Assembly (NCBI GenBank): GCA_003649205.1
Contig: QMRC01000001.1
Span: 64,001-128,000 of the forward strand
Source: Thermoprotei archaeon
GTDB taxonomy: Archaea > Thermoproteota > Thermoprotei > Thermoproteales > B15-G16
DNA length: 64,000 bases
Direction of reading: 5' to 3'
The notes under the pieces were generated by a model. That model did not search any database. It was not told the DNA's origin and saw only the letters and a list, made by a program, of their open reading frames with translations. The translations under genes and the position numbers were made by a program. Positions 3,315 through 34,455 of this stretch are shown one piece after another. The first letter of the stretch is position 1. Each line of letters begins with the position of its first letter.

Positions 3315-3315
3315 G

Positions 3316-3564
3316 CTACTTAGCCTTGCTCTCGCTCTGTAGCTTCTTAAGCTCTTCCTCCCTCTCAACTGTTAGTATCCTCGCAATTGCTCTCTTGAGT
3401 AATCTTATCCTAGCAGGATTCTCAATACGACCTCTTGTCGTCAGTAACGTCTGTAATCTCATTAACTCAGCTCTCAATTCCTGAAGTAATTTCTGCCTCT
3501 CCTCCCTACTCATAGCACGTAACTCCTTTGCCTTTATCTTAGCTGGATCTTTTCTCTTTGACAT
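3316..3564 (-). CDS. rpl29: 50S ribosomal protein uL29
   Basis: ELRAMS..ELRAEL..NPARIRLLKRAIARILT. Confidence 0.93.
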   Translation of the reverse strand: MSKRKDPAKIKAKELRAMSREERQKLLQELRAELMRLQTLLTTRGRIENPARIRLLKRAIARILTVEREEELKKLQSESKAK

Positions 3565-3573
3565 CTAAATCAC

Positions 3574-4242: not shown

Positions 4243-4284
4243 GTCGTCAAGTTACTGGTGGTACAGATATAAAAACCTTATCAC

Positions 4285-5289: not shown

Positions 5290-5294
5290 TGAGC

Positions 5295-7135: not shown

Positions 7136-7136
7136 C

Positions 7137-21437: not shown

Positions 21438-23264
21438 TTGAGTAGTACTGTCGTTGGTAGTAGAGGCCGAGTGATGAGAATTAGAGCACCTATAGTAGTT
21501 GTGTTAGGTCACGTAGATGTCGGTAAGACCTTACTTCTAGACAAGATCAGGGGTACTGCTGTAGCCTATCGAGAACCGGGTATGATTACTCAGCATGTTG
21601 GTGCTAGCTTCCTCCCCTGGAAAGCCCTCGAGAATTACTGTGGTGAACTTCTCGATATGTTCAAGCTGAGAGGTAAGGTTAAGATACCTGGCTTCCTCAT
21701 GATCGATACCCCAGGTCACGCAGCTTTCTCAAATCTTAGGAAGAGAGGTGGTTCAGTAGCTGACTTAGCTATTCTCGTTATTGATGTTCTCGAGGGTTTT
21801 GAGGAGCAGACATACGAGTGTATTGAGATATTGAAAGCTAGGAAGGTACCTTTTGTAGTTGCTGCTAACAAGATCGATAGGATACCCGGTTGGAAACCAC
21901 AACCCAATAAACCATTTCTGTACTCAATTCAGAAGCAACGTGAAGATGTAGTTGAGAGACTTGAGGAGTTACTCGCGAGAATAATTCTCGAATTCAATAA
22001 ATTAGGTTTCAATGCGGATAGGTACGATAGAGTTAGAGACTTCGCGCACACGGTAGCTATCGTACCTACGAGCGCATTGACGGGTGAGGGCGTTGCTGAT
22101 CTACTACTCGTTCTCGCTGGTATAGCTCAGAGATTCTCACTTGATAAGTTGAAGGTGAGTACTGGTGCTGGTAGAGGTGTCGTGTTGGAGGTGAAGGAGG
22201 AGAAGGGTCTTGGTGTAACAGCCGATGTAATTCTGTACGATGGTATCATCAGGAAAGGAGATACAATCGTTGTTGGTGGTCTCGAGAAGCCCATAGTTAC
22301 GAGAGTTAGAGCACTACTCGTACCCAAGCCAATGGATGAGATGAGAGATCCAGAAGATAGGTTCTACGACATGGATAGAGTTGAGGCTGCTGCAGGTGTT
22401 AAGCTAGTAGCTCCAGACCTGGATAAGGCTGTTGCAGGTGCACCAGTATTCGTAGTTCCTGAAGGTGAAGATGTTGAGAAGTACATTGAGTTAGTGAGAG
22501 CTGAGCTAGCTGAGGTCAGGATACAGAGAGATGTAGAGGGTGTTGTAGCTAAGGCAGATACACTAGGTACTCTTGAGTCCATGGTACTGTACTTAAGAGC
22601 ACACAACATCCCGGTTAGAATAGCAGACATAGGGCCAGTCAGCAAGAGGGACATCTTCGAGGCATACATAGCTAAGCAGAAGAACCCAATGTACGGAGTA
22701 GTACTAGCCTTTAACGTCAAGGTACCACCGGACGTAGAGGATGAAGCAATTAGGAAGGGAGTCAAGATCTTCCAGAGCAACATACTGTATAGACTAGTTG
22801 AGGAGTTCCTCAAGTGGTTCGAAGAGGTAAAGCAGAGAAAGCTAGAGGAAGAGCTCTCTAAGCTCATTAGACCAGCAAAGATCAGGATACTACCAGGCTA
22901 CATCTTCAGAAGGAGCGACCCAGCAATAGTAGGTGTCGAGGTACTCTCAGGTGTCATAAAGCCAGGTTACCCACTAATGAGAGCTGACGGTAGATCACTA
23001 GGACACATAATGCAGATACAGGAACACGGAAAACCACTACCAGAAGCAAGGAAAGGAGCAGCAGTAGCAATCTCAATTAGAGGAAACGTCATAGTAGGTA
23101 GACACATCAAGGAAGGAGACATAGTGTACGTAGACGTACCACTAGAACACTGCTACAGATGGGCATCAGACTACAGACAATACCTATCAGACGACGAAGT
23201 AGAAACCCTGAGAGAAATCCTAAACATAAAGAAAGAGCTAAAAGAGAAACGTAGAGTAGGGTAA
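21438..23264 (+). CDS. infB: Translation initiation factor aIF5B (IF-2)
   Basis: GHVDVGKT, ITQHVGA, DTPGH, NKID, KADTLGTLE. Confidence 0.96.
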   Translation: MSSTVVGSRGRVMRIRAPIVVVLGHVDVGKTLLLDKIRGTAVAYREPGMITQHVGASFLPWKALENYCGELLDMFKLRGKVKIPGFLMIDTPGHAAFSNLRKRGGSVADLAILVIDVLEGFEEQTYECIEILKARKVPFVVAANKIDRIPGWKPQPNKPFLYSIQKQREDVVERLEELLARIILEFNKLGFNADRYDRVRDFAHTVAIVPTSALTGEGVADLLLVLAGIAQRFSLDKLKVSTGAGRGVVLEVKEEKGLGVTADVILYDGIIRKGDTIVVGGLEKPIVTRVRALLVPKPMDEMRDPEDRFYDMDRVEAAAGVKLVAPDLDKAVAGAPVFVVPEGEDVEKYIELVRAELAEVRIQRDVEGVVAKADTLGTLESMVLYLRAHNIPVRIADIGPVSKRDIFEAYIAKQKNPMYGVVLAFNVKVPPDVEDEAIRKGVKIFQSNILYRLVEEFLKWFEEVKQRKLEEELSKLIRPAKIRILPGYIFRRSDPAIVGVEVLSGVIKPGYPLMRADGRSLGHIMQIQEHGKPLPEARKGAAVAISIRGNVIVGRHIKEGDIVYVDVPLEHCYRWASDYRQYLSDDEVETLREILNIKKELKEKRRVG

Positions 23265-23278
23265 CCCCCGGTGATCCA

Positions 23279-23758
23279 ATGCCAACATTTAAGGTAGTCA
23301 TCAGCGACCCAATGACAGGACTATCCAAGCAAGTAGAGGTAAAAGACCCAACAGCACAAGCATTCATAGGTAGGAAGATAGGTGATGTACTAGACGGGAA
23401 AATACTCGGACTACCAGAAGGAATTAAGATACAGATAACAGGAGGTAGCGGTAACGAGGGTAGCCCCCTCCTACCATTTATTGAAGGCCCTGTTAAGAGA
23501 TACGCACTGCTCTCAGGGCCACCCGGATTTCATCCAAGGAGAAGAGGTGAAAGAAGGAGAAAGCTAGTTAGGGGCAACACGATAACAGATACCGTCAGTC
23601 AGATTAATGTCAAGATAATCTACCCACCAAACTGGGATAAGGGACCCATCATTACATGGGAAGTTATTGGTAAACAACCAAAGAACAAGAGAATTCAGAA
23701 GCTCTACGAAAAGAAGATTAAGGAAGCTACTAAGCTAGCAAGTCAGACAGGAAAGTGA
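23279..23758 (+). CDS. rps6e: 30S ribosomal protein eS6
   Basis: FKVVISDP, ITGGSG, GERRRKLVRG. Confidence 0.94.
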   Translation: MPTFKVVISDPMTGLSKQVEVKDPTAQAFIGRKIGDVLDGKILGLPEGIKIQITGGSGNEGSPLLPFIEGPVKRYALLSGPPGFHPRRRGERRRKLVRGNTITDTVSQINVKIIYPPNWDKGPIITWEVIGKQPKNKRIQKLYEKKIKEATKLASQTGK

Positions 23759-23787
23759 GGAAGAGGAGAGAGGTGGGTGGGGGTTTC

Positions 23788-24075
23788 CTACATTAACCTG
23801 CTTTTTACGTCTCTAATTGCTTCCTCTATGGTCTCTGGTATCGGTAGGTTAAGCTCATTCTACAGTTCAATAAGTTGAGTAGGTTTTCTGGGTACTTCCT
23901 TACGCCAATTTTGATTGTGTAGTAGAGCTTGTTGTATGTTTGATCTTTACCCCTACATATTGTGTACCTGATGTTGTACTTTCTAAGTAGCTCGACTATC
24001 TTTTCGGAATCTCGTACCTATCTTCTGGTACTCTCGGTACTTCTAAGAACCCTTTACATCGATAGTTCCTCTTGA
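23788..24075 (-). pseudogene. Degenerate LAGLIDADG-like endonuclease remnant
   Basis: Across frameshifts and stops reads RGTIDVKGS*..DSEKIVELLRKYNIRYTI..YYTIKIGVRK..IEEAIRDVKSRLM*. Confidence 0.4.
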
Positions 24076-24402
24076 TCCGTAGTAGTACATTCCTAACATT
24101 CGTTACTCTATGACTCGAGATCAATATCTTTCTCGGTTGTTGTTTCTTACCTGGATTTCTCCTTAACCTTATTGAAAAACTCATTTAACTTCAATCCACA
24201 TACCAGTATCTCCTTCATAATTTGAAGAAACTTCAAGAGCTTCATCAGTAAGTATTCCAGCCTTAACTATTAGCTCCTTAAGATCTTTCCCCTCCTTAAC
24301 CTGAATTATGGTGTTAAAGAGGCTTACACACCCTATCTATTCCAGACTCCAGACATGGTTAATGCCTTGATATAGAAGCATAGCCCATATAGTTAGGATT
24401 TA

Positions 24403-24927
24403 GTGAGGTGTAGACCTATAGGGAGAGACAAAAGAGATTCACTAATTGCCACTGATCGTAGTAAGGGTAGGAAGGTCACATTGTATTCTATTGTGGTATC
24501 TTCCATGAGGGCTAGGGATGAGCTGACGAGGTATGTTGATACGTTTAAACATGTAAAGTTCCTTAGTAGACATGAACGAACAACATACTTCCCTAAGACA
24601 CTTAGGATTATCAAGACACTCGTTGATGCAGATATTTTGCTAAGTATTGATGTAACTAACTACCTAGGAGTACTTCTAGATCATCTTGAGAAAATTAGTA
24701 ATAGAGTAAATAGAGTACTTGTCGCTGTTACAGATGACTACCTAGTTAATATCACCAGGAATAAGCTTAGAGAATCAGTAGTTATAGCTGAAGGCTCTCT
24801 AAGAAGGTATAGAGTTACGCTAGAAAACCTTGGATTAAAGTCATCTGTAATGTACGTTCTTCTAGGTATTGCTGATACACTAGCAGCTTACACTAGAATA
24901 CAAGTTGAAGATCAGGGCAGAAAATAG
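24403..24927 (+). CDS. DUF3800-like RNase H-fold protein
   Basis: N-terminal strand LIATDRSKG + VTLYSIVV, central VAVTDD, C-terminal LLGIADTLAAYTR resembling the QxAD helix of DUF3800. Confidence 0.55.
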   Translation: MRCRPIGRDKRDSLIATDRSKGRKVTLYSIVVSSMRARDELTRYVDTFKHVKFLSRHERTTYFPKTLRIIKTLVDADILLSIDVTNYLGVLLDHLEKISNRVNRVLVAVTDDYLVNITRNKLRESVVIAEGSLRRYRVTLENLGLKSSVMYVLLGIADTLAAYTRIQVEDQGRK

Positions 24928-24976
24928 AGAAATAAGATCGAAATTATCACTAAAGTGGAGTTTATGAAAGGTAGAC

Positions 24977-25036
24977 AAGCTCCGCCCCAACCTCATCCCC
25001 CGGGAGTATCCCCCGGCGGTCGAGGGCTTCATCCGG
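24977..25036 (-). ncRNA. Putative ~60-nt structured RNA with two kink-turn motifs, convergent on the DUF3800-like gene
   Basis: CCGGAUGAAGCCCUCGACCGCCGGGGGAUACUCCCGGGGGAUGAGGUUGGGGCGGAGCUU; 42/60 GC in AT-rich flanks; 7-bp hairpin; GAU-GA/GA k-turn pairs; TATA box ~25 nt upstream. Confidence 0.65.
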
Positions 25037-25058
25037 ATAAATAATAGTTTCTAGAGAA

Positions 25059-25066
25059 TTTATATA
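25059..25066. promoter_or_regulatory. TATA box readable in both directions (TTTATATA / TATATAAA) with purine-rich BRE-like flanks
   Basis: gagaaTTTATATAgcttttgc; spacing fits the minus-strand RNA (~25034) and a plus-strand transcript for the 25116 ORF. Confidence 0.55.
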
Positions 25067-25115
25067 GCTTTTGCAACTAAAGCCAAAACCGTAAGCGAGA
25101 TAGTATTAATAAGAG

Positions 25116-25589
25116 GTGGTATTTCTGAGATTGCCTTTTCCTAAGTCTAAGAGATTCTATGTGTATCTATGGATTGACTTAGTCATTAGCTCACTTCTTC
25201 TTTCGTTCATAATTTTTATAACGTTTCTCGCCGCTCTCTCCCAGCAATGGCTTGTTTTCATTATTTTTCTAGGATTTCTTTTCGCCTATGTTTGGTGTTG
25301 GTACTCTAGAGACCTATTTATCTTGAGGAATTGGCGTAAGTGTAAGGTTGTTGTTACTGAAAGCTATGATCCGCATTATTTCAAAGCCAAGGGATTTGAA
25401 TTAAATATAAGGAAAATACCTTTCTCATGGTCTAAATATTACAAAGTAACTGTAAACAATGTAAGCTTTATAGTTTATCCTACGAGAATAACTGGTAAAA
25501 TAATGGTAATTCCAGTGAACATACATTTAATACCGAAAAACGTTAATGAGGAAGATTTACGTAAAATACTCCAATTAATTCCAGCGTAG
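25116..25589 (+). CDS. Hypothetical membrane protein (2 N-terminal TM helices)
   Basis: Hydrophobic helices at about residues 15-62; AT-rich; no family recognised. Confidence 0.6.
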   Translation: MVFLRLPFPKSKRFYVYLWIDLVISSLLLSFIIFITFLAALSQQWLVFIIFLGFLFAYVWCWYSRDLFILRNWRKCKVVVTESYDPHYFKAKGFELNIRKIPFSWSKYYKVTVNNVSFIVYPTRITGKIMVIPVNIHLIPKNVNEEDLRKILQLIPA

Positions 25590-26106
25590 ACCACACCATG
25601 CAAGTTGTGAATTTACACATTCCTACACTTCTAGGCCTCAGCTTTGGGTTATTGTACATTATTACTGGTGCATTGTTCTTTACTTTTATTCGTAGGATTC
25701 TTTGTAGGATTAGGCTTACATCTCGGATTCATAGTAGGCATAAAGAGCTATGGTAAGATGGCCTTTCTAATAGCTTCAAACCTATTAGTTACATGCTTAG
25801 AGGCACTAGGTTTTAAGTAACTCCTCATTTATCTTAAAAGTAACAGTCCTCATAATATCACAGTATTCAAATGCTGTTGATGAAGAAGATAGTAAAGCTT
25901 GTTGGATACTATTTCACTAAGGTTCAGGTTCGCTCCACGAACCTCTTATCACGGTCATTAAGCGTGTCAAAATACCTTGGGATTCCTTCACACAATCTCC
26001 TTAATCCTCCTAACGGTAACCTAAACTTCGCCCAAGACCAGTTCTCTATTTAGACTAGTACTAGTAGATGTATGTAAAAACTATTTCCAGTTTAGACTGC
26101 GAGTAG

Positions 26107-26427
26107 GTGTCTGGTATAGAAGGAACCCTCCTAGAGAAGTATGGAAACAGATTTGTATGGATTTGTTACTACTCTTCATTCCAAAGCGGTTCTATGCCTT
26201 GTAGACTTAGATTTAATGGTGCTTTACGATTATTGTTTTACCTTCTTGATGTTGGTGAAGCTAGTTTTAGTAGAACTAGGAATGATTCGATGAAGTATGA
26301 GACTGTGGCTAGAGCTGTTGAGATACTTAAGGAGGTTGGTTTTATTGAGGAGAGAGTAGACAATAAACCACCATACCCTAGACTAGTTAAATTAACTGAT
26401 AAGGGTAAAAATGCTAGTGAACTCTAA
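26107..26427 (+). CDS. Winged-helix (MarR/HxlR-like) DNA-binding protein, possibly truncated
   Basis: TVARAVEILKEVGFIEE..RLVKLTDKGK wing motif. Confidence 0.6.
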   Translation: MSGIEGTLLEKYGNRFVWICYYSSFQSGSMPCRLRFNGALRLLFYLLDVGEASFSRTRNDSMKYETVARAVEILKEVGFIEERVDNKPPYPRLVKLTDKGKNASEL

Positions 26428-26436
26428 CAGCTTCGC

Positions 26437-26622
26437 TCATAAATCCTCTGGATTTTCTCCCCAATTAATCAGTAGTTCCTTATCCAGCACCATTCCATAT
26501 AGTTCTCTTAGCTTCTCAATTACCTTTCCTCCATCCCTTATCTTTTCCTTGTACTACTCTTGCTTCTCAAGAGCTAGTAGTAATGCATTTTCAACACCAC
26601 AAGCATACATACCATTACCCAT
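26437..26622 (-). pseudogene. Gene fragment with internal stop, function unknown
   Basis: MGNGMYACGVENALLLALEKQE*YKEKIRDGGKVIEKLRELYG.. has natural protein-like composition; explains the Ser-rich shadow ORF on the plus strand. Confidence 0.3.
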
Positions 26623-26865
26623 GGTCCCTTAGCATTCAAGAGGACGCCCCATTGTAATGCGAGGTTTTAGAGTACTCTCAGGTGATGTTATTAATTTATG
26701 ACTAGGCGGGTAAAACCTTTAAAACTAGACGAGGAAACATATCAGACCTAGGCTTATGGTATAGTAGTAAGGCTAAGCTTTACTTTAGGAAAGGGGAAGA
26801 GCTATTTCAGCAATATAGGTTTCCATAAGCATTCAGTTATTTCAGGAAAGTATAGCGTTTACCTC

Positions 26866-26925
26866 AAAATTATCTGTGAATTCTTTAAAATTATCATTAA
26901 AATTATCATTACTAAAAATTACCAT
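26866..26925 (+). repeat. Four imperfect direct repeats AAAATTA(T/C)C
   Basis: Copies at 26866, 26887, 26899, 26915. Confidence 0.7.
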
Positions 26926-27020
26926 AAAGAACATTATGTCAGTGAGCATCTAGAGAAAATAGCCAAAGATATAGACTCCCTTAAGAAAGAGCTTTCACGA
27001 TTAGCCCTAGCATCTAGTCG

Positions 27021-27752
27021 ATGGGTGAGAATGCGACAAAAGACCAGAGGAATTATACGACATGGAAATCAGCGTCCAACGTACTAAACATGTTCAGAAA
27101 CTTCTCAACACTCTTTCTTCCCTTTGGTGCTTCAAGATCTAGATTAAATACTCGGAGAGAATCAAATAAGCAAGCGCAACCAGAAGGCTTGAAAGATCCT
27201 CAGTATAGTAGAGGAGATGGCATAGTTAGTCGAGCAAAATTTGATTACGTAGATCTCTTAATACTAAAGGAGCTAGAGAAAGAAGCACCAAGAGCACCAG
27301 AGGAGCTATCACGAACATTGAATATATGTTCAAAATCGATAAAAAGACATTTCAATAAGCACATCCTCAGGAGAGGTCTCATTGAAGCTCTTCGCATAAG
27401 ATGCTTCTGGTGGAAACCGGAAGAGGCATTATGGTACTCGATGTCGATTACATTTAGCTCAGAAAGTTTCGTTAAATCATTTATAAATACACTATATGGA
27501 TCACCAATAGTTCAATAATTTCTGCTAACAACAAAAGCACGACACATCCTAGTATCAATAGTGCTACCACGAAGCGAAGTAGTAGGTTTATTAAACTTCG
27601 TAAAAAGATTGAAGCATCACAACATTATCACAAAGCTTGAAATGTACCAGTTAGTACTGGATAGCTTCAAGAACTTTACAATACCTTATGAATGCTATGC
27701 AGAAGAGCCAGCTTCTGGAAGTTACCTGTGTCCAGTATTTAGAGTTTTTTAA
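27021..27752 (+). pseudogene. Lrp/AsnC-like HTH regulator interrupted by an in-frame TAA (27516-27518); N-terminus also degraded
   Basis: FDYVDLLILKELEK..ELSRTLN..SIKRHFNKH; ORFs 27021-27518 and 27561-27752 share one frame with no other stop between them. Confidence 0.65.
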
Positions 27753-27757
27753 CTTTA

Positions 27758-27798
27758 CTGCCATGGCAGCCAAGATACATGATAGGTATGCATACCTA
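27758..27798. promoter_or_regulatory. Two perfect palindromes (CTGCCATGGCAG 27758-27769; TAGGTATGCATACCTA 27783-27798) downstream of a TATA-like TTTTTAAC, upstream of the RiPP precursor
   Basis: Direct reading; operator or 5'-UTR hairpin role is inferred. Confidence 0.5.
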
Positions 27799-27830
27799 CT
27801 CTGGCTTAGATCGTGAATACGGTGCTGAGA

Positions 27831-27944
27831 ATGAGGCCAAAAGATATGAGAAGTAGGGTGCTAGTACTCGAAAGGGCTAAGAGCACAATGCTAACAGAGC
27901 CTAACTTCTTCTGTGGGAGCTTCATATCACCTGTACGTACATAG
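27831..27944 (+). CDS. Putative RiPP precursor peptide, 37 aa: MRPKDMRSRVLVLERAKSTMLTEPNFFCGSFISPVRT
   Basis: ATG after GGTG RBS-like motif; stop 10 nt before the rSAM start; basic/hydrophobic leader-like half, aromatic core with a single Cys; below the ORF-track cutoff. Confidence 0.7.
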   Translation: MRPKDMRSRVLVLERAKSTMLTEPNFFCGSFISPVRT

Positions 27945-27954
27945 AGGGATCACC

Positions 27955-29292
27955 ATGTTCAAACTCTCGAAATTCACTTTATTTTTCCCATATAATGAAA
28001 ACTACGTACTACTTTACAACACCTTGACGAAAGCAATAGCACTAGTCACAAAAGATCTAGCCTATGCACTACGCTCTGGTAATTTTAATGAACTCAGCAA
28101 GGATGAACTCAATGAGCTGTTAAGTAATGGCTTTTTAGTAGAAAAAGATATTGACGAAACAAAACTGCTGATATACCACAGCTATAGATCAATCTTCAAC
28201 TACTCATACCTAAACTTGGTACTTCACATCACATCAGCATGTAATATGAGCTGTATATACTGTTATGAAGGGCCTAAACGAGGACTACATATGGATGAGA
28301 AGGTATGTCAAAATGTAGTGAAGTTCGTTAAGAGGATTGTAGAATGTAGAGGATCAAGGAACGTTGTCACATTACTTCACGGTGGAGAACCTCTCCTGAA
28401 TTATAGGATCCTACTAACGTACTGTCGAGAAATCTATAAGCTCGCTGATGAATATAGGTTGAAAGTAGAGAATATATTGATAACTAATGGTACATTGTTG
28501 ACAAAAGATAAAATTGATACTATATCATGCCTTGTGAACGAAGTACAGGTAACGCTTGATGGTCCTAGAGATATACACGACTTCCGACGACCTTTCATTG
28601 ATGGTAAGGGGACGTTTGATGTAATACTGAGAAATGTGCTTGAGATTGTTGACAGAGTGCAGACCCTAAGTATCAGAATAAATGTTGATAAGCAGAATGT
28701 TATGTACATCACTAAGCTGCTTGACTTACTCAGGGACTATGGTCTTAATAGGAGAAATGTCCTTATAGGTTTTGGTCGAGTATTTGTACCAAGGGTCAGT
28801 AATGGTAGGTACAATCCTGACTGGATTTTCAGTTACAGAGAATTCGTAGATGTCCTCATTGGTCTTCAGAAAGAGGCATTGAGAAGGGGGTTCAAGATAG
28901 TTAGGAAGATAGAGTTAAGGCCTTGCCCTGCATTGCACGATAATAGCTTCGCAGTAGATGAGAGGGGTAAAATATACAAATGTCCTGTATTTGTATGGGA
29001 TGAGAGATTCGCTATTGGAAACATAGATGATCTTGAGATTGCTCTCTTCAGAAATTCATTCGCTAATTACTTGGACTTCATACTAGAGGTTCCTTGGCAG
29101 AAACATTTGGGATGTCCATACTTGCCAATGTGTTACGCTGGCTGCACATACGAGTCTATAGTGCTTAAGGGTAAGATCAATGAGGTATGCTGTCCAAGGG
29201 ATTACTTTGAAAAGTTAGGTGAATTACTTAGGCTCTACGTGGAGTCAAGATATGGAGATGTTCTTGAGAGGTTTAGTAGATGCAGGTGCTGA
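27955..29292 (+). CDS. Radical SAM/SPASM peptide maturase with N-terminal RRE-like domain; start set at MFKLSKF
   Basis: KLSKF..VLLYNTLT..LLSNGFL N-domain; CNMSCIYC; HGGEPLL; TNG; TLDG; SPASM C-x13-G-x4-C..HxxCx5Cx3C..CC. Confidence 0.9.
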   Translation: MFKLSKFTLFFPYNENYVLLYNTLTKAIALVTKDLAYALRSGNFNELSKDELNELLSNGFLVEKDIDETKLLIYHSYRSIFNYSYLNLVLHITSACNMSCIYCYEGPKRGLHMDEKVCQNVVKFVKRIVECRGSRNVVTLLHGGEPLLNYRILLTYCREIYKLADEYRLKVENILITNGTLLTKDKIDTISCLVNEVQVTLDGPRDIHDFRRPFIDGKGTFDVILRNVLEIVDRVQTLSIRINVDKQNVMYITKLLDLLRDYGLNRRNVLIGFGRVFVPRVSNGRYNPDWIFSYREFVDVLIGLQKEALRRGFKIVRKIELRPCPALHDNSFAVDERGKIYKCPVFVWDERFAIGNIDDLEIALFRNSFANYLDFILEVPWQKHLGCPYLPMCYAGCTYESIVLKGKINEVCCPRDYFEKLGELLRLYVESRYGDVLERFSRCRC

Positions 29293-30203
29293 TAACACGT
29301 GAATTAACTAAGGTCTATAGTGGCTATGTTGTAGCGAATGACAATATCAACATTACGGTCAATAGAGGTGAGGTAGTTGGTATACTTGGTCCTAATGGTG
29401 CTGGTAAGACAACTTTCGTTCGACAGGTCATAGGTGTGCTTAAGCCAACACGTGGATACATTGAGCTACTTGGTCACAAGGTACCTGATGAGATTCACAG
29501 GGTTAAGCACTTCATTGGGTATATGCCTCAGTACCCAGCTTACTACCATGGAGTAACTGTATACCAGCTAGTGTACTACATCGCTAGACTATACGGTATG
29601 TCTAGACGAGAGGCAAAGAGTAGGACTTCTGAAATTCTCAAGGAGATGAACCTCCTAGACTACGCTAACTACTATCACAATAACCTCTCAGTTGGTCTAG
29701 CTAGAGTAACTTACTTTTGCTCAGCTATAGTTCACGATCCAGAGTTCCTAGTACTAGATGAACCAACTAGTATGTTGGATCCATCTATGAGACGTAGAGT
29801 GATATCGAAGATTAAGGAGATGAAGAGACAGGGTAAGACCGTACTTCTGACGACAAATATCATTAGGGATGTTGAGGAGCTATGTGATAGGGTTTACTTC
29901 CTACTAAATGGTAGAGTATTGCTTGAGGGTAGTCCTAGTGAGATTGTATCTCGTATTCTCGGTACAATTAAGGTTCATGTCAAGGTTCGTGAGAAAATTC
30001 CGCTAGAAGAGATGATTAGAGAAAGGTATGGAGATTGCATCGAATCTATTGAGTACTTAGAGGACAATGAGATTGTGCTGAGTGTAAGGAATCTAGTTAG
30101 GGCTTTGGATTTTGTTAAGGAGATAGCGAAGGTAGCAAACATAACCTATATCTCAATCTCAACTCCATCACTTGAGGAGGTGTACCTGAAGATATATGGT
30201 TGA
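29280..30203 (+). CDS. ABC-2 type exporter ATP-binding subunit
   Basis: GPNGAGKT, LDEPT; overlaps the rSAM stop. Confidence 0.9.
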   Translation: MQVLITRELTKVYSGYVVANDNINITVNRGEVVGILGPNGAGKTTFVRQVIGVLKPTRGYIELLGHKVPDEIHRVKHFIGYMPQYPAYYHGVTVYQLVYYIARLYGMSRREAKSRTSEILKEMNLLDYANYYHNNLSVGLARVTYFCSAIVHDPEFLVLDEPTSMLDPSMRRRVISKIKEMKRQGKTVLLTTNIIRDVEELCDRVYFLLNGRVLLEGSPSEIVSRILGTIKVHVKVREKIPLEEMIRERYGDCIESIEYLEDNEIVLSVRNLVRALDFVKEIAKVANITYISISTPSLEEVYLKIYG

Positions 30204-30945
30204 GGTGGTGAAGGGTATGGTCATGAAGTACCTACGGTCATTAGTAGCTCTATCCACGATGCATCTTAGAGTACTCCTATACTTCTGGCCATATTACCTA
30301 ATGTCCTCACTCCTTACACCACTACTCGTAGTACTCATGCTCTACTACGTACTTGGGTACACAGCAAATGTACTCTACCTGATATGCGCTATGTTCACAC
30401 TATCTTCACTGGGCACATTCACAATGATTTCACAGGACATAAGTAGTCTGAAGCAAACACAGGTGTATGAGTTCTACGCATCATTACCCATATCTCCACT
30501 AGACTACGTGCTATCAAAGCTAATAGCTAATTTAGTCATGTACATACCATCCATAGCTGTATTACTGCTAACTGGATACTTGCTGACAGGTACTCTACCA
30601 AACATACCACTATTCGCTATAGCTGTAGTCATTTCCTACACAGCATTTATATGGTTAGGTATGATCGTAGGACTATACTCACGAAATCCAGTACAGGCTA
30701 ACGTCATATCAATGATTGTGTACCTAGTACTTCTCTTTGGATCACCAATGTATGGACCTATATCCAACACCAACTTAGTGCTTAGAACTGCAGCTCTAGT
30801 ATTACCGACAACGCATATAGCTAAGGTATTCCGCTCCTCATACTGCATTGAAAGCGTGAGCCCTGATACAATCACTTACCTAGCTATATGGTACATAGTG
30901 AACACTGTGATCATATCTAGAAGGTTAAGGTGGACATTAGAGTAA
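30196..30945 (+). CDS. ABC-2 type exporter permease
   Basis: About six TM helices, SLPISPLDYVLSK, LPTTH; coupled to the ATPase. Confidence 0.85.
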   Translation: MVEVVKGMVMKYLRSLVALSTMHLRVLLYFWPYYLMSSLLTPLLVVLMLYYVLGYTANVLYLICAMFTLSSLGTFTMISQDISSLKQTQVYEFYASLPISPLDYVLSKLIANLVMYIPSIAVLLLTGYLLTGTLPNIPLFAIAVVISYTAFIWLGMIVGLYSRNPVQANVISMIVYLVLLFGSPMYGPISNTNLVLRTAALVLPTTHIAKVFRSSYCIESVSPDTITYLAIWYIVNTVIISRRLRWTLE

Positions 30946-31561
30946 TGAAGTTTAAAGATCTGCGGAAATAGGTTCGACTTAACAGCAATATTGAGTGATG
31001 GTAGTAGTAATGTACCTGGGGCAAGTATATGAAGTTCAAGGTCTCTAGTTCTTGTGCAGGGAATGCATCCATCATCAGGAGATTGTGTGACTGCTGAAGT
31101 ATGTAGTTGTGTCTGTGGATTGCTCTATCGCTTGTACTTATTATCCGCTATAAGCAGAAACAGGAGTTGCATATACAAACCTCGCATCAGCATCATCAAG
31201 TCCTAGCTCGCAAAGCTTAGAGTAAAGTTCGCGAAATGCTGTAGGAGGTTCATCATCAGTCAAGTACCGTATCATTACTTCCAAATCACTCTCTACCTCC
31301 TGTAACCTATTCCTTAGCAAAACAACATGCAATAATTGAGGGATAGCCATAGCTACTACAGTGCTTGCAGATAATGGTCGTGATGAAATTTCAACTCTAC
31401 TACCAATACCAGGAGTGAATTGATGCGATGGAGATACAGAGCACAGCCTCTCCATACTACTCCGCTACTCACCTACAACATCAAGGTACTTAGCTATTTC
31501 CTCACGATTTCAGATAAAGCGACATTCGAGAGAAGTAGTACTCAAGTCAATAATTGACCTA

Positions 31562-31861
31562 TTGAATCGATTGATAGTGACGAGACATAGCAGGAGGAGA
31601 CTTGTTCAGGTGTACTACGAAACACGGGTTAGGGAGAACATTGAGAAAGCTACTGAGTAGCTTAGGGATATAGGTATGACCAATGTTAGGGTGTATGAGG
31701 ATAAGGCGAAGAATGGTGTAGTGTATAGACTTTATTTTGGTGTTAGCAAGTCAACTGTAGGCATTCTATACAGGTTACTTGAAGAGATGAGGAAGATGAG
31801 TGTTGACCAAGATAAGGTAGTGAAGTTGGAGGAGGCAATAAAGTTCTTGACTCAGGAGTAA
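31562..31861 (+). pseudogene. Degenerate LAGLIDADG-like endonuclease remnant
   Basis: IDSDE in adjacent frame, then RLVQVYYETRVRENIEKATE*LRDIGMTNVRVY..VYRLYFGVSK..LEEAIKFL; TAG at 31658-31660. Confidence 0.4.
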
Positions 31862-32146
31862 ATGCTGACACTGGAGCATCATTTGGGATGCTTGGGTTAG
31901 AACATCAGAGAGCTTTTCTCTGTTGCTTTCTAAATGAAGTAATTTGCTGATACCTGTCTGGTTGCTCTCATGTGAGATTTCTGATTTCTTATTCAGCTTC
32001 TTTTCAAGTCGTTTTCAGTTACAGGGACTTTCAGGACTTTTACAATCACGCTTTCTACGTGGTTACACTGATTGTTTCCTCTGAGGTAAAATTTATGAAA
32101 GGTATTTGGCTAGAGCATATAAGAGGTCTAAGGAGTTCGGGGTTAG

Positions 32147-33409
32147 GTGATCGGTATGAGCAAACAGACGTTGCCTGTGTGTATCATAGGTACAGGGGGT
32201 CACGTAGACCACGGTAAGACTACGTTGGTTCAGGCGTTGTCTGGTGTTTGGACTGCTCGTCATAGTGAGGAGCTTAAGCGTGGTCTCACTATGAAGCTTG
32301 GTTATGCCTACATTACTATCTATAAATGTCCTAGGTGTCCTCCTCCTCAGTGTTACCTCACTCACGTTATGTTGAGGGATGGTAGGTGTCCTCACTGTGG
32401 TTCTGAGGTTGAGTTTGTGAGGAAGATATCTGTAGTCGATGTTCCTGGTCACGAGACGTTGATGGCTACTATGATTGCTGGTGCAACTCTCATGGATGGT
32501 GTGCTCTTTGTCATAGATGCGACCGTACCCTGTCCACAGCCACAGACATACGAGCACTTCATGGCTTTAACCATAATGGGTGTTAGGAACATTGTGATTG
32601 TTCAGAATAAGATCGATGTTGTTGCTGATAGGGATAAGTTGCTTAAGCACTATCAGCAGATTAAGAAGTTTATTGAGGGTACTTGGGCTGAAGATGCACC
32701 TATAATACCTGCATCAGCGCTTCACAAGGTGAATGTAGATGCTGTTGTTGAGGCTATTGAGGAGAGGATTCCGACTCCGAAGAGGGATGAGTCTAAACCA
32801 CCGAGATTCCTCATTGCTAGGTCCTTCAACGTGAATAAGCCAGGTACACCACCAGAGAATCTTCAGGGTGGTGTCATTGGTGGTTGCTTGATTCAGGGTA
32901 AGCTCAGAGTTGGTGATGAGATAGAGATTAGGCCAGGTATAAGGGTTGTTGAGCATGGTAAGGTCAGGTATGAGCCGTTGTACGCTAAGGTGCTGAGCAT
33001 CAAGGTTGAGGATATGTTCGTTGAGGAGGTTGGTCCAGGTACTCTCGTCGGTATCGGTACTGATCTTGATCCAGCACTGACCAGGGCTGATGCTCTTATC
33101 GGTAATGTAGCTGGTAAGGTGGGTACTCTACCACCTACGAGATTTAGTCTTAGGTTGGAGACTCACTTACTGGAGAGGGTTGTTGGTTTGAGGGAGTTGC
33201 CTAAGGTTGAGAGGATTAGGAAGGGTGAGGTGCTGATGCTTGTTGCTGGTACAGCGACTACTCTAGGCGTTGTGAGGAGTGTCATGGGTGATGAAATCTA
33301 TGTAGATCTCCGTAGACCTGTGTGTATTGAGACTGGTGCTAAGGTTGTGATCAATAGGCAGATTGCTGGTAGGTGGAGGTTAATTGGGTACGGTATCGTC
33401 AAGGACTAG
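32147..33409 (+). CDS. eif2g: Translation initiation factor aIF2 gamma
   Basis: GHVDHGKT, HSEELKRG, Zn knuckle, DVPGHE, QNKID, WRLIGYG. Confidence 0.96.
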   Translation: MIGMSKQTLPVCIIGTGGHVDHGKTTLVQALSGVWTARHSEELKRGLTMKLGYAYITIYKCPRCPPPQCYLTHVMLRDGRCPHCGSEVEFVRKISVVDVPGHETLMATMIAGATLMDGVLFVIDATVPCPQPQTYEHFMALTIMGVRNIVIVQNKIDVVADRDKLLKHYQQIKKFIEGTWAEDAPIIPASALHKVNVDAVVEAIEERIPTPKRDESKPPRFLIARSFNVNKPGTPPENLQGGVIGGCLIQGKLRVGDEIEIRPGIRVVEHGKVRYEPLYAKVLSIKVEDMFVEEVGPGTLVGIGTDLDPALTRADALIGNVAGKVGTLPPTRFSLRLETHLLERVVGLRELPKVERIRKGEVLMLVAGTATTLGVVRSVMGDEIYVDLRRPVCIETGAKVVINRQIAGRWRLIGYGIVKD

Positions 33410-33824
33410 TCACAGGTACTTTATTGTACTCGACACCAACATGGTTATGCTGGCTGTTGCTGAGGGTATTGACGTATTTGATGAGTTTGAGAGAGTTCTA
33501 GAGGTACCTCATGAGTACGTGATATTGAGATCAAGTATTGATGAGCTTGAGAGATTGATTAGAGAGAAGGGTCCTAAGGTTAGGAGACAAGCATTGCTAG
33601 CTCTGGAGATTGCTAAGTCTAGGTGTAAGGTGATTGATGACTCGTCGATACCTGGCTCTGGTGTTGATGAGAAGATAGTTAACTTCGCCCTAGCTAACAA
33701 GGGGAGAGTTGTCGTTGCTACAAATGATACTAGGTTGAGGAAGAGGTTGAGAGAGTTGTCAATACCTACAGTGTACTTCAGAGCTGAGAGGAGAGGTCTT
33801 GAGATAGATACTGAGTTGTACTAG
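33384..33824 (+). CDS. PIN-domain protein (Fcf1/Utp24-like rRNA processing)
   Basis: VLDTN, DELE, VATND..LR; conserved position after aIF2g. Confidence 0.85.
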   Translation: MGTVSSRTSHRYFIVLDTNMVMLAVAEGIDVFDEFERVLEVPHEYVILRSSIDELERLIREKGPKVRRQALLALEIAKSRCKVIDDSSIPGSGVDEKIVNFALANKGRVVVATNDTRLRKRLRELSIPTVYFRAERRGLEIDTELY

Positions 33825-33879
33825 AAGGTAGAAAAGTACAATAAGTGAGTTCTCTGTGGTATGTTGCTTGGTGAAGTAG

Positions 33880-34455
33880 ATGTTTAGGTTAGTCACAATC
33901 GAGGACTTTGTTAGGATTCCACCTGAGAGGTTTAAGGAGCCCCTTGAGAAGGTTGCTAAAGAAATCATTAGAAGTGAGTACGAGGGTAAGGCAATTAAGG
34001 ATCTAGGTATCGTAGTCGCTATCATAAACATCAAGGTATCTAAGGTAGGTAAGGTAGTACCAACTGATGGTGCTAGCTACCACAAGGTAGTGTTCGATGC
34101 TCTTGTCTTCTATCCTCAGCTTCAGGAAGTTATTGAGGGTGAAGTAGTTGGTGTCGTACCTTATGGCGCATTTGTGAGGATTGGTCCTATAGATGCTCTT
34201 CTCCACATATCGCAGATAGGTGATGATAGGTTTAGGAATGATCCACGTAGGGAAGCACTAATTGGAGAGAAGACACAGTATGTTCTAGGTAAGGGTGATA
34301 GAGTAAGAGCTAGAATAGTCTCAGTTAGTATGCCAGGTCCATCACCGAGACCAGAACCGATAAGAGTTGGTTTAACCATGAGACAACCCTTCCTAGGAAA
34401 GCTTGAGTGGATTGAGGAGGAACTGCGTAAACTAAAGGCCAGAGCAAGGTCATGA
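33880..34455 (+). CDS. rpoE1: RNA polymerase subunit Rpo7 (E')
   Basis: VRIPPERF, S1 domain GAFVRIGPIDALLHISQI, LTMRQPFLGK. Confidence 0.96.
   Translation: MFRLVTIEDFVRIPPERFKEPLEKVAKEIIRSEYEGKAIKDLGIVVAIINIKVSKVGKVVPTDGASYHKVVFDALVFYPQLQEVIEGEVVGVVPYGAFVRIGPIDALLHISQIGDDRFRNDPRREALIGEKTQYVLGKGDRVRARIVSVSMPGPSPRPEPIRVGLTMRQPFLGKLEWIEEELRKLKARARS

What the first reader, a model, noticed from the sequence alone, without database searches (positions are those of the whole stretch)
27746..30945. Archaeal RiPP-like operon with an unannotated 37-aa precursor peptide
Seen: a small ORF missed by the ORF track (27831-27944, MRPKDMRSRVLVLERAKSTMLTEPNFFCGSFISPVRT). It has an RBS-like GGTG and ends 10 nt before a radical SAM/SPASM gene with an RRE-like N-terminal domain, followed by a translationally coupled ABC-2 exporter. 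These four genes are intact while most of the island is decaying. Established: precursor + RRE-rSAM/SPASM + exporter is the layout of sactipeptide, ranthipeptide and cyclophane clusters, and very few archaeal examples are characterised. Inference: VLVLERAK is the RRE-binding leader and PNFFCGSFISPVRT the core, cross-linked through its single Cys (thioether) or its Phe residues. No leader peptidase is visible in the cluster.
Basis: partly seen in the sequence, partly recalled or inferred. Interest (0 to 1): 0.85.

Follow-up and report, generated by a model that had tools for sequence, protein, structure and literature searches.

The report
Archaeal radical-SAM peptide operon with precursor
A small horizontally acquired island in a hydrothermal archaeon carries a four-gene operon (short unannotated peptide, radical SAM/SPASM peptide-modifying enzyme, two-part ABC exporter) that looks like a working modified-peptide (RiPP) factory of a widespread but uncharacterised family.

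Summary
A 37-codon ORF (27831-27944; alternative starts 27813 and 27846) ends 10 nt before a 445-aa radical SAM/SPASM gene (27955-29292). That gene overlaps an ABC ATPase (29280-30203), which overlaps an ABC-2 permease (30196-30945).

The enzyme is a RiPP-maturase type. It matches CefB, geopeptide and Clo7bot models over their full length, all below cut-off. CteB is the best solved relative. Its N-terminal 85 residues model as an RRE fold.

In 45 of 160 relatives' loci a short same-strand ORF near the enzyme carries a hydrophobic-strand leader and a Cys core, against 2 of 160 on the opposite strand. The nearest relative with context (L107) has the same gene order.

Within the island, the window peptide holds the only leader-motif match and the best core-motif score. 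A complex model docks VLVLER onto RRE strand beta3 (0.76; best control 0.02).

Against this, whole-peptide HMMs are not significant, no RNA data exist, and one conserved SPASM Cys is replaced by His.

Verdict: probably a real precursor (about 0.7), and a new member of a known kind. The chemistry is untested.

The parts
24158..31149 (.). Low-GC island inserted between aIF5B/S6e and aIF2-gamma. It is absent from, or replaced in, the same-genus genome G001.
   Evidence: GC is 0.37-0.41 here against 0.43-0.45 in the flanks. G001 matches window 22500-24157 at 96% and 31150-34000 at 94%, but of the interval between them only 70 nt (27075-27144). In read laying an X3 loose end and an X2 contig alignment also start at 31150. 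The island DNA is unique in the genome. The window has no tRNA gene.
27021..27518 (+). 165-aa ORF with weak winged-helix matches; a possible regulator of the operon (inference only).
   Evidence: Pfam HTH_24 E=0.045 and HTH_AsnC-type E=0.093, both below cut-off. No PHROG match.
27745..27752 (+). TTTTTTAA, a TATA-box-like element about 60-80 nt upstream of the peptide starts (inferred promoter).
   Evidence: Read from the sequence. The archaeal TATA consensus is recalled, not tested. No RNA run was available.
27821..27824 (+). GGTG, a Shine-Dalgarno-like element 6 nt before ATG 27831.
   Evidence: The anti-SD could not be checked because no 16S 3' end was found in the assembly.
27831..27944 (+). 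Candidate precursor peptide, 37 aa (43 aa from GTG 27813; 32 aa from ATG 27846, the length that best fits the related precursors).
   Evidence: No family match. It is absent from predicted-protein databases. The complex model gives 0.76 against 0.02 for the best control.
27858..27878 (+). Leader strand VLVLERA (residues 10-16 of the 37-aa form).
   Evidence: This is the only match to the leader motif in all six frames of 24158-31300. Residues 10-15 pair with enzyme residues 26-31 with expected errors of 0.7-1.4 A.
27897..27941 (+). Core region EPNFFCGSFISPVRT, with the single Cys at 27912-27914.
   Evidence: It has the best core-PSSM score in the island (12.7 bits; next best 9.5), and 29 of 1,921,017 genome positions score as high. 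Residues 28-32 touch enzyme residues 323-325, 345, 397 and 399 in the model.
27955..29292 (+). Radical SAM/SPASM peptide maturase, 445 aa.
   Evidence: Pfam and NCBIfam. CteB 5wgg at E=6.4e-53. AF2 model with pLDDT 90.6. Foldseek ranks CteB, TigE, anSME, ChlB and SuiB highest.
27955..28209 (+). N-terminal RRE-like domain (residues 1-85): three strands followed by three helices.
   Evidence: pLDDT 92.2. In the Foldseek list, ranks 1 to 12 and 14 are RiPP leader-binding proteins (TigE, TbiB1, the 4v1t/u/v heterocyclase, ThcOx, lasso B1, McbBCD, CteB). The best E-value is 2.7e-3, and none reaches 1e-3.
28240..28263 (+). CX3CX2C radical SAM cluster motif (C96, C100, C103).
   Evidence: Invariant in 35 of 35 aligned homologues.
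28924..29193 (+). SPASM region: C324, C343, H384, C387, C393, C397, C412, C413.
   Evidence: Position 384 is His where 129 of 132 aligned relatives have Cys. The extra Cys at 412 is seen in 1 of 35.
29280..30203 (+). ABC transporter ATPase (DrrA-like); overlaps the rSAM stop by 13 nt.
   Evidence: PF00005 at 90.5 bits. TIGR01188 drrA at 3e-62, below its cut-off. It is 35% identical to the ATPase at the same position in L107.
30196..30945 (+). ABC-2 type permease; overlaps the ATPase stop by 8 nt.
   Evidence: PF01061 at 55 bits (cut-off 26.9). Weak match to SagH permease, E=3.9e-4. It is 24% identical to the L107 permease.

Best explanation
The operon is a four-gene RiPP operon on an island of about 7 kb that was acquired horizontally.

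- The short ORF encodes the precursor. It most likely starts at ATG 27846 or 27831.
- Its N-terminal hydrophobic strand (VLVLERA) is the leader. It binds by beta-strand addition to strand beta3 (K26-T32) of the RRE domain fused to the N-terminus of the rSAM/SPASM enzyme.
- The C-terminal part (EPNFFCGSFISPVRT) is threaded into the barrel next to the SPASM clusters. There the enzyme modifies it, most likely by making one thioether ring from Cys28 to a downstream residue, as the closest solved relative CteB does.
- The ABC-2 pair exports the product, confers self-protection, or does both.
- No peptidase is encoded, so the leader is either kept or removed by a host protease.

Shown in silico: the gene content, the enzyme class, the RRE fold, the similar design of relatives' precursors, and the predicted docking. 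Inferred: expression, the start codon, the nature of the cross-link, export, and biological activity.
For: 1. Enzyme class.
- The protein matches RiPP maturase models over their full length, N-terminal domain included: CefB NF038107 at 3.1e-73, geopeptide maturase TIGR04280 at 1.3e-68, Clo7bot at 1.9e-58 and TIGR04463 at 3e-52.
- CteB is the best solved relative (6.4e-53; Foldseek 1.8e-22, TM about 0.7).
- CX3CX2C and six SPASM cysteines are conserved.

2. RRE.
- The N-terminal 85 residues model as a beta-beta-beta-alpha-alpha-alpha domain (pLDDT 92.2).
- In the Foldseek list, ranks 1 to 12 and 14 are RiPP leader-binding proteins.

3. Relatives carry the same kind of peptide.
- Among 160 loci of distant homologues, 45 have a short same-strand ORF within 500 nt with the leader motif followed by a Cys. 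On the opposite strand 2 of 160 do.
- Two sub-families emerged. A 'CC' type lies upstream in 22 loci; the one member scanned against NCBIfam, L018, weakly matches geopeptide TIGR04229 (E=0.033). A single-Cys type lies downstream in 18 loci, for example L114 MKITVIKKATTDRKPQNFCPWVQDDFTEKKS and L133 MKIKVVKKATNVKPSGFCGAWIDDPPMNKK.

4. Phylogeny and synteny.
- In a tree of 132 enzymes the window groups with P0003, P0004 and L107.
- L107 has three tandem 30-aa precursors (MEMEVFEEGSMGMDCVFCNPVCSLQTEQDD and two variants), then the rSAM, then an overlapping ABC ATPase and an ABC-2 permease. That is the window's order. The ATPases are 35% identical.

5. The window peptide fits.
- A core PSSM built from the single-Cys family without the window peptide gives EPNFFCGSFIS 12.7 bits. 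That score is reached by 29 of 1,921,017 six-frame positions in the genome, so 0.009 are expected in the +/-300 nt flanks.
- Across all six frames of the island (14,286 positions) this is the top core score, and the only leader-motif match lies 13 codons upstream of it in the same ORF.

6. Docking.
- The complex model scores ipSAE 0.76 (three runs: 0.74, 0.76, 0.78). The best of 3 controls scores 0.02.
- The mark was reached by 58 of 80 solved complexes and 2 of 110 mismatched pairs. These counts hold only roughly here because my own alignment was used.
- The runs agree in at least 77% of their contacts, and the partner's pLDDT is at least 52.
- The tightest contacts are peptide residues 10-15 with enzyme residues 26-31.

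7. Population data.
- A variant contig about 95% identical, from an independent vent metagenome (X2), covers 27306-30096. All 4 of its indels lie at 27611-27746, upstream of the ORF.
- An X3 contig covers 27789-27942 with 12 substitutions and no gap.
Against: - Whole-peptide profile searches are not significant. The CC-family HMM gives 0.5 bits, and the ORF is not among 1080 hits at E<=1000 in 51,033 genome ORFs. The single-Cys HMM gives 4.7 bits, E=72 genome-wide.
- My two-part PSSM ranks the ORF 211 of 51,033, because the leader part scores -4.9.
- The peptide lacks the two most conserved features of the CC family, Gly after the strand and the Cys pair. It lies upstream, whereas the single-Cys family lies downstream.
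- The motif, the columns and the pseudocounts were chosen after I had seen the peptide, so the small probabilities are optimistic.
- No homologue of the peptide exists in the predicted-protein databases.
- The codon-usage score does not separate it from neighbouring chance ORFs.
- The absence of indels in 27747-27954 is not significant on its own (about 1.9 expected).
- The enzyme has His at position 384, where 129 of 132 relatives have a cluster-ligating Cys, so it may be impaired.
- Solved RRE-leader complexes exist, so the docking score may partly reflect likeness to them. The rival ORFs could not be docked for comparison because only one job was allowed.
Confidence: 0.7

Rival explanations
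1. The 37-codon ORF is a chance open frame in AT-rich leader DNA. The enzyme's true substrate is encoded elsewhere, or was lost when the island was acquired.
For: An open frame of this length is not rare by chance. The profile HMMs are not significant. The ORF has no homologue and was not called as a gene in any source. Codon usage is uninformative. The substitution density in 27789-27942 (12 in 154 nt) is nearer to the upstream non-coding DNA (38 in 387 nt) than to most of the operon.
Against: The island's only leader-motif match and its best core-motif score fall together, in the right order, in this ORF 10 nt before the enzyme. Docking gives 0.76 against controls of 0.02 or less. The nearest relative with context has its precursors at the same position. 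No CC-type or other precursor-like ORF scores better anywhere in the island.
Confidence: 0.17
2. One of the other upstream short ORFs is the real precursor: 27561-27752 (63 aa, two Cys near its C-terminus) or 27688-27816 (42 aa).
For: Both lie on the same strand within 400 nt of the enzyme. The 63-aa ORF ends in a Cys-containing, aromatic-rich tail. Their codon scores are no worse than the candidate's.
Against: In the X2 variant a 1-nt insertion at 27699 and a 1-nt deletion at 27746 shift the frame over about 16 codons of both ORFs. Neither has a leader-motif match or a core score in the island's top eight. Both lie largely upstream of the TATA-like element at 27745-27752 (an inference).
Confidence: 0.03
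3. The operon is a relic. The precursor and enzyme were once functional, but the enzyme is now inactive because the first Cys of the CX2CX5CX3C SPASM motif is His.
For: H384 stands where 129 of 132 relatives have Cys. The island is patchily distributed: it was not found in same-genus G001, which is 71% complete. The left half of the island is gene-poor.
Against: All four reading frames are intact. The X2 variant has no indel in 27747-30096. His can ligate Fe-S clusters, and an extra Cys412 lies next to C413 (general knowledge). CteB itself works with an open coordination site on an auxiliary cluster (recalled from the 5WGG paper; not read here).
Confidence: 0.08
4. The rSAM/SPASM enzyme is not a peptide maturase. 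It would act on a protein or a cofactor (anSME-, QhpD- or CrpC-like), and the ABC-2 transporter would be unrelated.
For: anSME and the heme and PQQ enzymes are detectable relatives. An archaeal SPASM enzyme that modifies a large protein has been described (CrpC; PMC13692751; abstract and Introduction read).
Against: The best models are all small-peptide maturases with an N-terminal RRE, and the anSME models score far lower (1.1e-22 against 3.1e-73). The three genes overlap one another. No Cys-rich protein gene lies in the island.
Confidence: 0.02

Closest known systems
CteB / SCIFF system (Clostridium thermocellum; PDB 5WGG, 5WHY), a thioether-forming rSAM/SPASM maturase with an N-terminal RRE
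   Same: It is the best solved relative by sequence (6.4e-53) and by fold (TM about 0.7 over about 455 columns). It has the same three-part architecture of RRE, rSAM barrel and SPASM. The predicted leader binding, a strand added beside RRE beta3, is the same mode.
   Different: Identity is only about 20% in the structural alignment. The SCIFF maturase model TIGR03974 scores 87.7 bits against a cut-off of 425. The window peptide has one Cys rather than six. H384 replaces a SPASM Cys.
Geopeptide system (NCBIfam TIGR04229 peptide plus TIGR04280 rSAM maturase); defined bioinformatically, with no paper found
   Same: It is the second-best NCBIfam model, matched over its full length (1.3e-68, residues 3-420). 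The precursors are 27-39 aa long, with a hydrophobic strand, then [KDE][KE]G, then a Cys-containing tail, and lie upstream of the enzyme. L097 MQKRIIVLKKGVEKKDGPDTFCCFGAFIPLTG has the same length and layout as the 32-aa form of the window peptide.
   Different: The enzyme scores 231.9 bits against a cut-off of 400. The window peptide has Ala rather than Gly and FC rather than CC, and scores 0.5 bits on the family HMM. In the tree the window lies outside the CC clade.
Unnamed single-Cys precursor family downstream of rSAM/SPASM genes in soil-type metagenome contigs plus L096 and L008 (found here)
   Same: The leader is a strand followed by KK[AG], with Ala allowed as in the window. The core has Pro, an aromatic residue, one Cys and an aromatic residue two to three positions later. 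FCGAWI in L133 compares with FCGSFI in the window. The core PSSM gives the window 12.7 bits.
   Different: Members score 24-36 bits, except L008. They carry a conserved Asp-Asp/Glu five to six residues after the Cys, which the window lacks (it has Ser and Pro). They lie downstream, not upstream. Their enzymes form a separate clade at about 27% identity.
L107 metagenome operon (nearest relative with genomic context)
   Same: The gene order is the same: precursor(s), rSAM/SPASM, then an overlapping ABC ATPase and an ABC-2 permease. The leader is of the same type (MEVFEEG). The ATPases are 35% identical and the permeases 24%.
   Different: It has three tandem precursor copies with three Cys each. 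The enzymes are only 27% identical. Its enzyme keeps the SPASM Cys that the window has lost.
CrpC/CrpA of Methanococcus voltae (PMC13692751), the one archaeal SPASM thioether enzyme my literature searches found characterised
   Same: It is an archaeal rSAM/SPASM enzyme with an RRE that installs thioether (ranthionine) links (abstract and Introduction read).
   Different: Its substrate is a large Cys-rich protein, not a short single-Cys peptide.

Membership tests
RRE-dependent radical SAM/SPASM RiPP cluster (sactipeptide/ranthipeptide type) | CX3CX2C radical SAM motif and rSAM barrel | tested here: met
   C96, C100 and C103 are invariant in 35 of 35 homologues. Pfam Radical_SAM scores 51.1 bits against a cut-off of 29.5. 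The AF2 model has pLDDT 90.6.
RRE-dependent radical SAM/SPASM RiPP cluster (sactipeptide/ranthipeptide type) | SPASM domain with the full set of seven conserved cysteines for two auxiliary clusters | tested here: inconclusive
   C324, C343, C387, C393, C397 and C413 are present. Position 384 is His where 129 of 132 relatives have Cys, and an extra C412 is present.
RRE-dependent radical SAM/SPASM RiPP cluster (sactipeptide/ranthipeptide type) | RiPP recognition element (three strands plus three helices) fused to or beside the enzyme | tested here: met
   The domain model has pLDDT 92.2, with strands 8-12, 17-22 and 27-32 and helices 33-41, 49-57 and 68-81. Foldseek ranks 1 to 12 and 14 are RiPP leader-binding proteins, with a best E-value of 2.7e-3 and TMq of 0.75. 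Pfam PqqD was not matched.
RRE-dependent radical SAM/SPASM RiPP cluster (sactipeptide/ranthipeptide type) | Adjacent short precursor with a leader bound by the RRE and a Cys-containing core | tested here: inconclusive
   The ORF is present. Motif co-location and the docking score of 0.76 against 0.02 support it. The HMMs are not significant. There is no expression or conservation data.
RRE-dependent radical SAM/SPASM RiPP cluster (sactipeptide/ranthipeptide type) | A thioether (S to C-alpha, C-beta or C-gamma) is actually installed | not testable with these tools
   This needs reconstitution and MS/MS.
Geopeptide system (TIGR04280 / TIGR04229) | Enzyme reaches the model's curated cut-off | tested here: not met
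   231.9 bits against a cut-off of 400.
Geopeptide system (TIGR04280 / TIGR04229) | Precursor with the strand-[KDE][KE]-G leader and the CC motif | tested here: not met
   No NCBIfam match even at E<=10. My HMM of 18 such peptides gives 0.5 bits. The window peptide has Ala and FC at those positions.
CefB, Cys-every-fifth maturase (NF038107) | Enzyme reaches the cut-off; precursor has Cys at every fifth position | tested here: not met
   247 bits against a cut-off of 600. The peptide has one Cys.
SCIFF / CteB (TIGR03974) | Enzyme reaches the cut-off; precursor has six Cys in forty-five residues | tested here: not met
   87.7 bits against a cut-off of 425. The peptide has one Cys.
Cyclophane-forming maturases (YhhB NF041707, GrrM/OscB TIGR04261) | Enzyme reaches the cut-off | tested here: not met
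   71.9 bits against 445 and 56 bits against 310. These are far weaker than the thioether-associated models.
Single-Cys downstream precursor family (unnamed, found here) | Leader MK-x-x-strand-KK[AG], core P-x-x-aromatic-C-x-x-aromatic-x-D-[DE], gene downstream of the enzyme | tested here: inconclusive
   The core scores 12.7 bits against 24-36 for members. The HMM gives E=72. The leader PSSM is negative. The window peptide has no Asp pair and lies upstream.
ABC-2 type exporter (DrrAB-like) | ABC ATPase plus ABC-2 membrane protein encoded side by side | tested here: met
   PF00005 at 90.5 bits and PF01061 at 55 bits, both above their cut-offs. The direction of transport was not tested.

The most novel reading that the evidence does not exclude
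The window peptide, the 'geopeptide' CC peptides and the newly seen single-Cys peptides may be one large, uncharacterised RiPP superfamily spanning Bacteria and Archaea. It would be defined by a short strand-[KDE][KER]-[GA] leader read by a fused RRE. Its single-Cys members would carry a cross-link not yet described, for example one small ring from Cys to a residue five positions downstream or to a neighbouring aromatic residue. The window's enzyme, with His in place of an auxiliary-cluster Cys, could be a natural variant that reveals how that cluster takes part in the chemistry. A thermophile-derived four-gene system would be a compact route to the first characterised archaeal rSAM peptide natural product.
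Probability: 0.3. Interest if true: 0.65.

Novelty: new member of a known kind. Interest (0 to 1): 0.45.

Why it matters
Archaeal RiPP clusters that depend on radical SAM enzymes are predicted in large numbers. According to the passages I read in PMC12144867, the only archaeal RiPP products characterised so far are lanthipeptides. The one archaeal SPASM thioether enzyme my searches found studied acts on a large protein (PMC13692751).

This locus offers a minimal, intact operon of peptide, enzyme and exporter, with a concrete precursor sequence missing from the predicted-protein collections searched. That makes expression and reconstitution directly possible.

It also ties an archaeal cluster to a bacterial superfamily (geopeptide-like and a single-Cys family) that I found described in no paper. 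A shared leader logic could therefore be tested across domains.

If the ORF turns out to be chance, the locus is just one more orphan rSAM/SPASM gene next to a transporter.

Tried and rejected
- **Close-homologue test.** A scan of one genome per species with the single protein found no relative. Among 61 related genomes only the paralogue's orthologue appeared. The 5.8-billion-protein search gave 35% identity at best.
- **Own-genome paralogue** (C4:67730, 33% identity) and its G001 orthologue have no transporter and no convincing short ORF nearby. They were not informative.
- **CC-family HMM.** It was seeded with 18 peptides that I picked by eye from the 60 loci printed. It converged at 23 hits in 160 loci and never recruited the window peptide.
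- **Single-Cys HMM and two-part PSSM.** Neither is significant genome-wide.
- **Codon-usage log-odds.** Every open frame scores positive, because the off-frame models are dominated by stop codons. The candidate scores 0.24 and the rival ORFs 0.33-0.36, so the test is uninformative.
- **16S 3' end.** It was not found in the assembly, so the Shine-Dalgarno pairing is unverified.
- **Predicted-protein searches with the peptide.** The word-index search found nothing. The full HMMER scan gave 2 hits (P0121, P0122). Both are long tandem-repeat proteins whose scores sum four repeats, so I rejected them as spurious.
- **RNA evidence.** No RNA holder is listed.
- **Read laying.** The list of substitutions was cut after 40 of 149 rows, all at or before 27720. 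Synonymous and non-synonymous changes in the ORF could therefore not be counted.
- **Literature.** 'geopeptide' returned 0 papers and 'TIGR04280' returned 0 papers. That these families are uncharacterised rests on those two searches and on recall.
- **Island genes.** Neither long ORF of the left part (24403-24927, 25116-25589) matches Pfam or PHROGs. The only PHROG match in the island is a transcriptional-regulator family for 26107-26427.
- **Tree.** I kept 120 of 160 loci, those whose match spans query residues <=30 to >=390, plus 12 database proteins. The other 40 loci were left out.

Full report
**What is in the sequence**

The window has an ORF from ATG 27831 to TAG 27942-27944.
- The same frame is open from GTG 27813 (43 aa) and contains an ATG at 27846 (32 aa).
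- GGTG lies 6 nt before ATG 27831, and GAGG (27833-27836) lies 9 nt before ATG 27846.
- Ten bases after the stop, at 27955, a 445-aa gene starts. A GAGG overlapping the peptide's stop codon lies 7 nt before that start. Thirty-four homologues begin at the equivalent Met, so 27955 is the true start, not the upstream GTG 27913.
- That gene's stop is overlapped by 13 nt by an ABC ATPase gene (29280-30203). The ATPase gene is in turn overlapped by 8 nt by an ABC-2 permease gene (30196-30945).

**Setting**

The flanking genes are aIF5B, ribosomal protein S6e, L7Ae, a GINS subunit and aIF2-gamma. The aIF2-gamma is closest to archaeal structures, so the host is an archaeon.
- G+C falls from 0.43-0.45 to 0.37-0.41 between about 24000 and 32000.
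- The only other genome of the genus (G001, 71% complete) matches the window up to 24157 at 96% and again from 31150 at 94%. Of the 7 kb between, it matches only 70 nt. It has no orthologue of the enzyme.
- In two vent metagenomes, contig alignments or loose ends also start exactly at 31150.
- The island DNA is unique in the genome, and no tRNA gene lies in the window.

So the operon sits on a strain-variable island, 24158-31149. I could not show that the rest of the island is 'decaying'. It is gene-poor: its two long ORFs match no family and the third has only weak regulator matches. I found no recognisable pseudogene.

**The enzyme**

- Pfam sees Radical_SAM and Fer4_12.
- NCBIfam aligns the protein nearly end to end, N-terminal domain included, with models of small-peptide maturases. 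These are CefB (3.1e-73), geopeptide maturase (1.3e-68), Clo7bot (1.9e-58) and TIGR04463 (3e-52). All fall far below their cut-offs, so it is a member of none.
- The best solved relative is the thioether-forming CteB.
- An AlphaFold model (pLDDT 90.6) matches CteB, TigE, anSME, ChlB and SuiB.
- The first 85 residues, modelled alone from 46 sequences (pLDDT 92.2), form three strands and three helices. In their Foldseek list, ranks 1 to 12 and 14 are RiPP leader-binding proteins: TigE, TbiB1, the 4v1t/u/v heterocyclase, ThcOx, lasso B1, McbBCD and CteB. No E-value is better than 2.7e-3. I count the RRE as met.
- CX3CX2C and six SPASM cysteines are invariant. Position 384, the first Cys of CX2CX5CX3C, is His in the window and Cys in 129 of 132 relatives. 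An unusual extra Cys sits at 412.

**No close relatives**

The best non-self hit among 5.8 billion proteins is 35% identical. Scans of one genome per species and of metagenome contigs gave loci of 23-32% identity. I ran it on distant homologues instead.

**What distant homologues carry**

Upstream of many Nitrospirota and Geobacter-type enzymes lie ORFs of 27-39 aa. They have a hydrophobic strand, then [KDE][KE]G, then a tail with two adjacent Cys, as in L097 MQKRIIVLKKGVEKKDGPDTFCCFGAFIPLTG.
- An HMM of 18 of them finds 23 in 160 loci, 22 of those directly upstream.
- I scanned two of them (L097, L018) against NCBIfam; only L018 matched, weakly, the 'geopeptide' model.

A second family lies downstream of the enzyme in 18 loci. 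It has a leader MK-x-x-strand-KK[AG] and a single Cys flanked by aromatic residues. L133 MKIKVVKKATNVKPSGFCGAWIDDPPMNKK and L096 MKLQVVKKGTRKDDKKTLYCFWFVTA are examples. The three members I scanned (L096, L114, L133) match no NCBIfam model.

Taking a general leader motif followed by a Cys, 45 of 160 loci have such an ORF within 500 nt on the enzyme's strand, against 2 of 160 on the other strand.

In a tree of 132 enzymes the window groups with P0003, P0004 and L107. That group is sister to the clades holding both precursor families. L107, the only member of the window's group with informative context, has three tandem 30-aa precursors, then the enzyme, then an overlapping ABC ATPase and an ABC-2 permease. 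This is the window's gene order.

**Does the window peptide belong?**

Evidence for:
- From its internal Met it has the family's length and layout: M-R-S-R, the strand VLVL, then E-R-A, a spacer, and P-N-F-F-C-G-S-F-I.
- A core matrix built from the single-Cys family without the window peptide gives 12.7 bits. That score is reached by 29 of 1,921,017 genome positions, so 0.009 are expected in the flanks.
- In all six frames of the island this is the top core score. The island's only leader-motif match lies 13 codons before it in the same ORF.

Evidence against:
- The two family HMMs give 0.5 and 4.7 bits (E=72 genome-wide).
- A two-part matrix ranks the ORF 211 of 51,033.
- The peptide has Ala for the near-invariant Gly of the CC family, FC for CC, and no Asp pair.
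- About one leader match is expected somewhere in the island by chance (167 of 2,431,347 positions genome-wide).
- My motifs were defined after I had seen the peptide.
- The peptide has no homologue among predicted proteins.

**Docking**

The complex model scores 0.76 (runs 0.74, 0.76, 0.78), against 0.02 for the best of three controls.
- The mark was reached by 58 of 80 solved complexes and 2 of 110 mismatched pairs. These counts hold only roughly, because my own alignment was used.
- The runs agree in at least 77% of their contacts, and the partner's pLDDT is at least 52.
- The tightest pairs are peptide residues 10-15 (VLVLER) with enzyme residues 26-31, the RRE beta3 strand, and with helix residues 51-58.
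- Peptide residues 28-32 touch residues 323-325, 345, 397 and 399, next to SPASM cysteines.

This supports binding but does not show it. Solved RRE-leader complexes exist, so part of the score may be likeness to them.

**Population data**

No RNA run holds the locus.
- An X2 contig about 95% identical covers 27306-30096 with 142 substitutions and 4 indels. All four indels lie at 27611-27746.
- Two of them shift the frame of both rival upstream ORFs (27561-27752 and 27688-27816) over about 16 codons. None touches the candidate ORF or the enzyme gene.
- An X3 contig covers 27789-27942 with 12 substitutions and no gap.
- The substitution list was cut before the ORF, so I could not count synonymous changes. 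The lack of indels in the ORF is not significant on its own.

**Mechanism and verdict**

Most likely (about 0.7) the ORF is the precursor.
- Its strand binds the fused RRE.
- Its Cys-containing tail is modified in the SPASM-lined cavity, most plausibly by one thioether ring as in CteB-type enzymes.
- The ABC-2 pair exports the product or protects the producer.

The cross-link itself is pure inference. The cyclophane models score much lower than the thioether-associated ones, but that does not exclude other chemistry.

**Known or new**

Archaeal rSAM RiPP clusters are widely predicted. The passages I read report only lanthipeptides as characterised archaeal RiPP products (PMC12144867). One archaeal SPASM enzyme that modifies a large protein has been studied (PMC13692751; abstract and Introduction read). 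I found no paper on 'geopeptide' or TIGR04280.

The locus is therefore a new member of a known kind. It comes with a concrete, previously uncalled precursor and a link to an uncharacterised superfamily that spans both domains.

Noticed in passing
window 29104-29106 (rSAM residue 384) and 29188-29193 (residues 412-413): The first Cys of the SPASM CX2CX5CX3C motif is His in this enzyme, where 129 of 132 relatives have Cys. An extra Cys (412) lies next to the conserved C413. This could be an alternative cluster ligand or a sign of lost function.
   Followed up: partly
L103-L148 (soil-type metagenome loci), L096:4375-4452, L008:4821-4922: A family of 21-33-aa single-Cys peptides lies directly downstream of rSAM/SPASM genes. 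They have the leader MK-x-x-strand-KK[AG] and the core P-x-x-aromatic-C-x-x-aromatic-x-D-[DE]. The three members I scanned (L096, L114, L133) gave no NCBIfam match. The conserved C-x4-D-[DE] spacing suggests a Cys-to-Asp ring.
   Followed up: partly
L107:2571-2923: Three tandem copies of a 30-aa precursor differ only in a few C-terminal residues. They lie upstream of an rSAM/SPASM gene, an ABC ATPase gene and an ABC-2 permease gene, in the window's order.
   Followed up: partly
L011 (Methanosaeta MAG) 808-7509; L012 (Thermococci MAG) 2195-4805: These loci hold arrays of tandem paralogous rSAM/SPASM maturase genes, five in L011 and two in L012, with no obvious short precursor between them.
   Followed up: no
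L101:2835-2924 and L135:2547-2672: Two upstream precursors share a conserved C-terminus ending in KDGCGY after an EEG-type leader. This is another single-Cys design in the same enzyme superclade.
   Followed up: no
window 31150: This is a sharp island boundary. The same-genus genome, an X2 contig and an X3 loose end all begin or stop matching exactly here, so vent populations hold both island-bearing forms and forms that lack the island or have different DNA there.
   Followed up: partly
window 27075-27144: A 70-nt stretch inside the 165-aa HTH-like ORF is the only part of the island that matches G001 (93% identical). In G001 it lies 236 nt beyond the left flank, which may make it a remnant of a shared ancestral gene.
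   Followed up: no
G000 contig C4:67730-68908 (L002) and G001 C33 (L006): A second rSAM/SPASM gene is 33% identical to the window's enzyme and conserved in both genomes of the genus. It stands alone, next to winged-helix regulators and an HD-domain-like gene, with no transporter.
   Followed up: partly
window 31054-31206 (+): A 50-aa Cys-rich ORF crosses the island boundary and overlaps a conserved 104-aa gene on the other strand (31141-31455). It is probably spurious.
   Followed up: no
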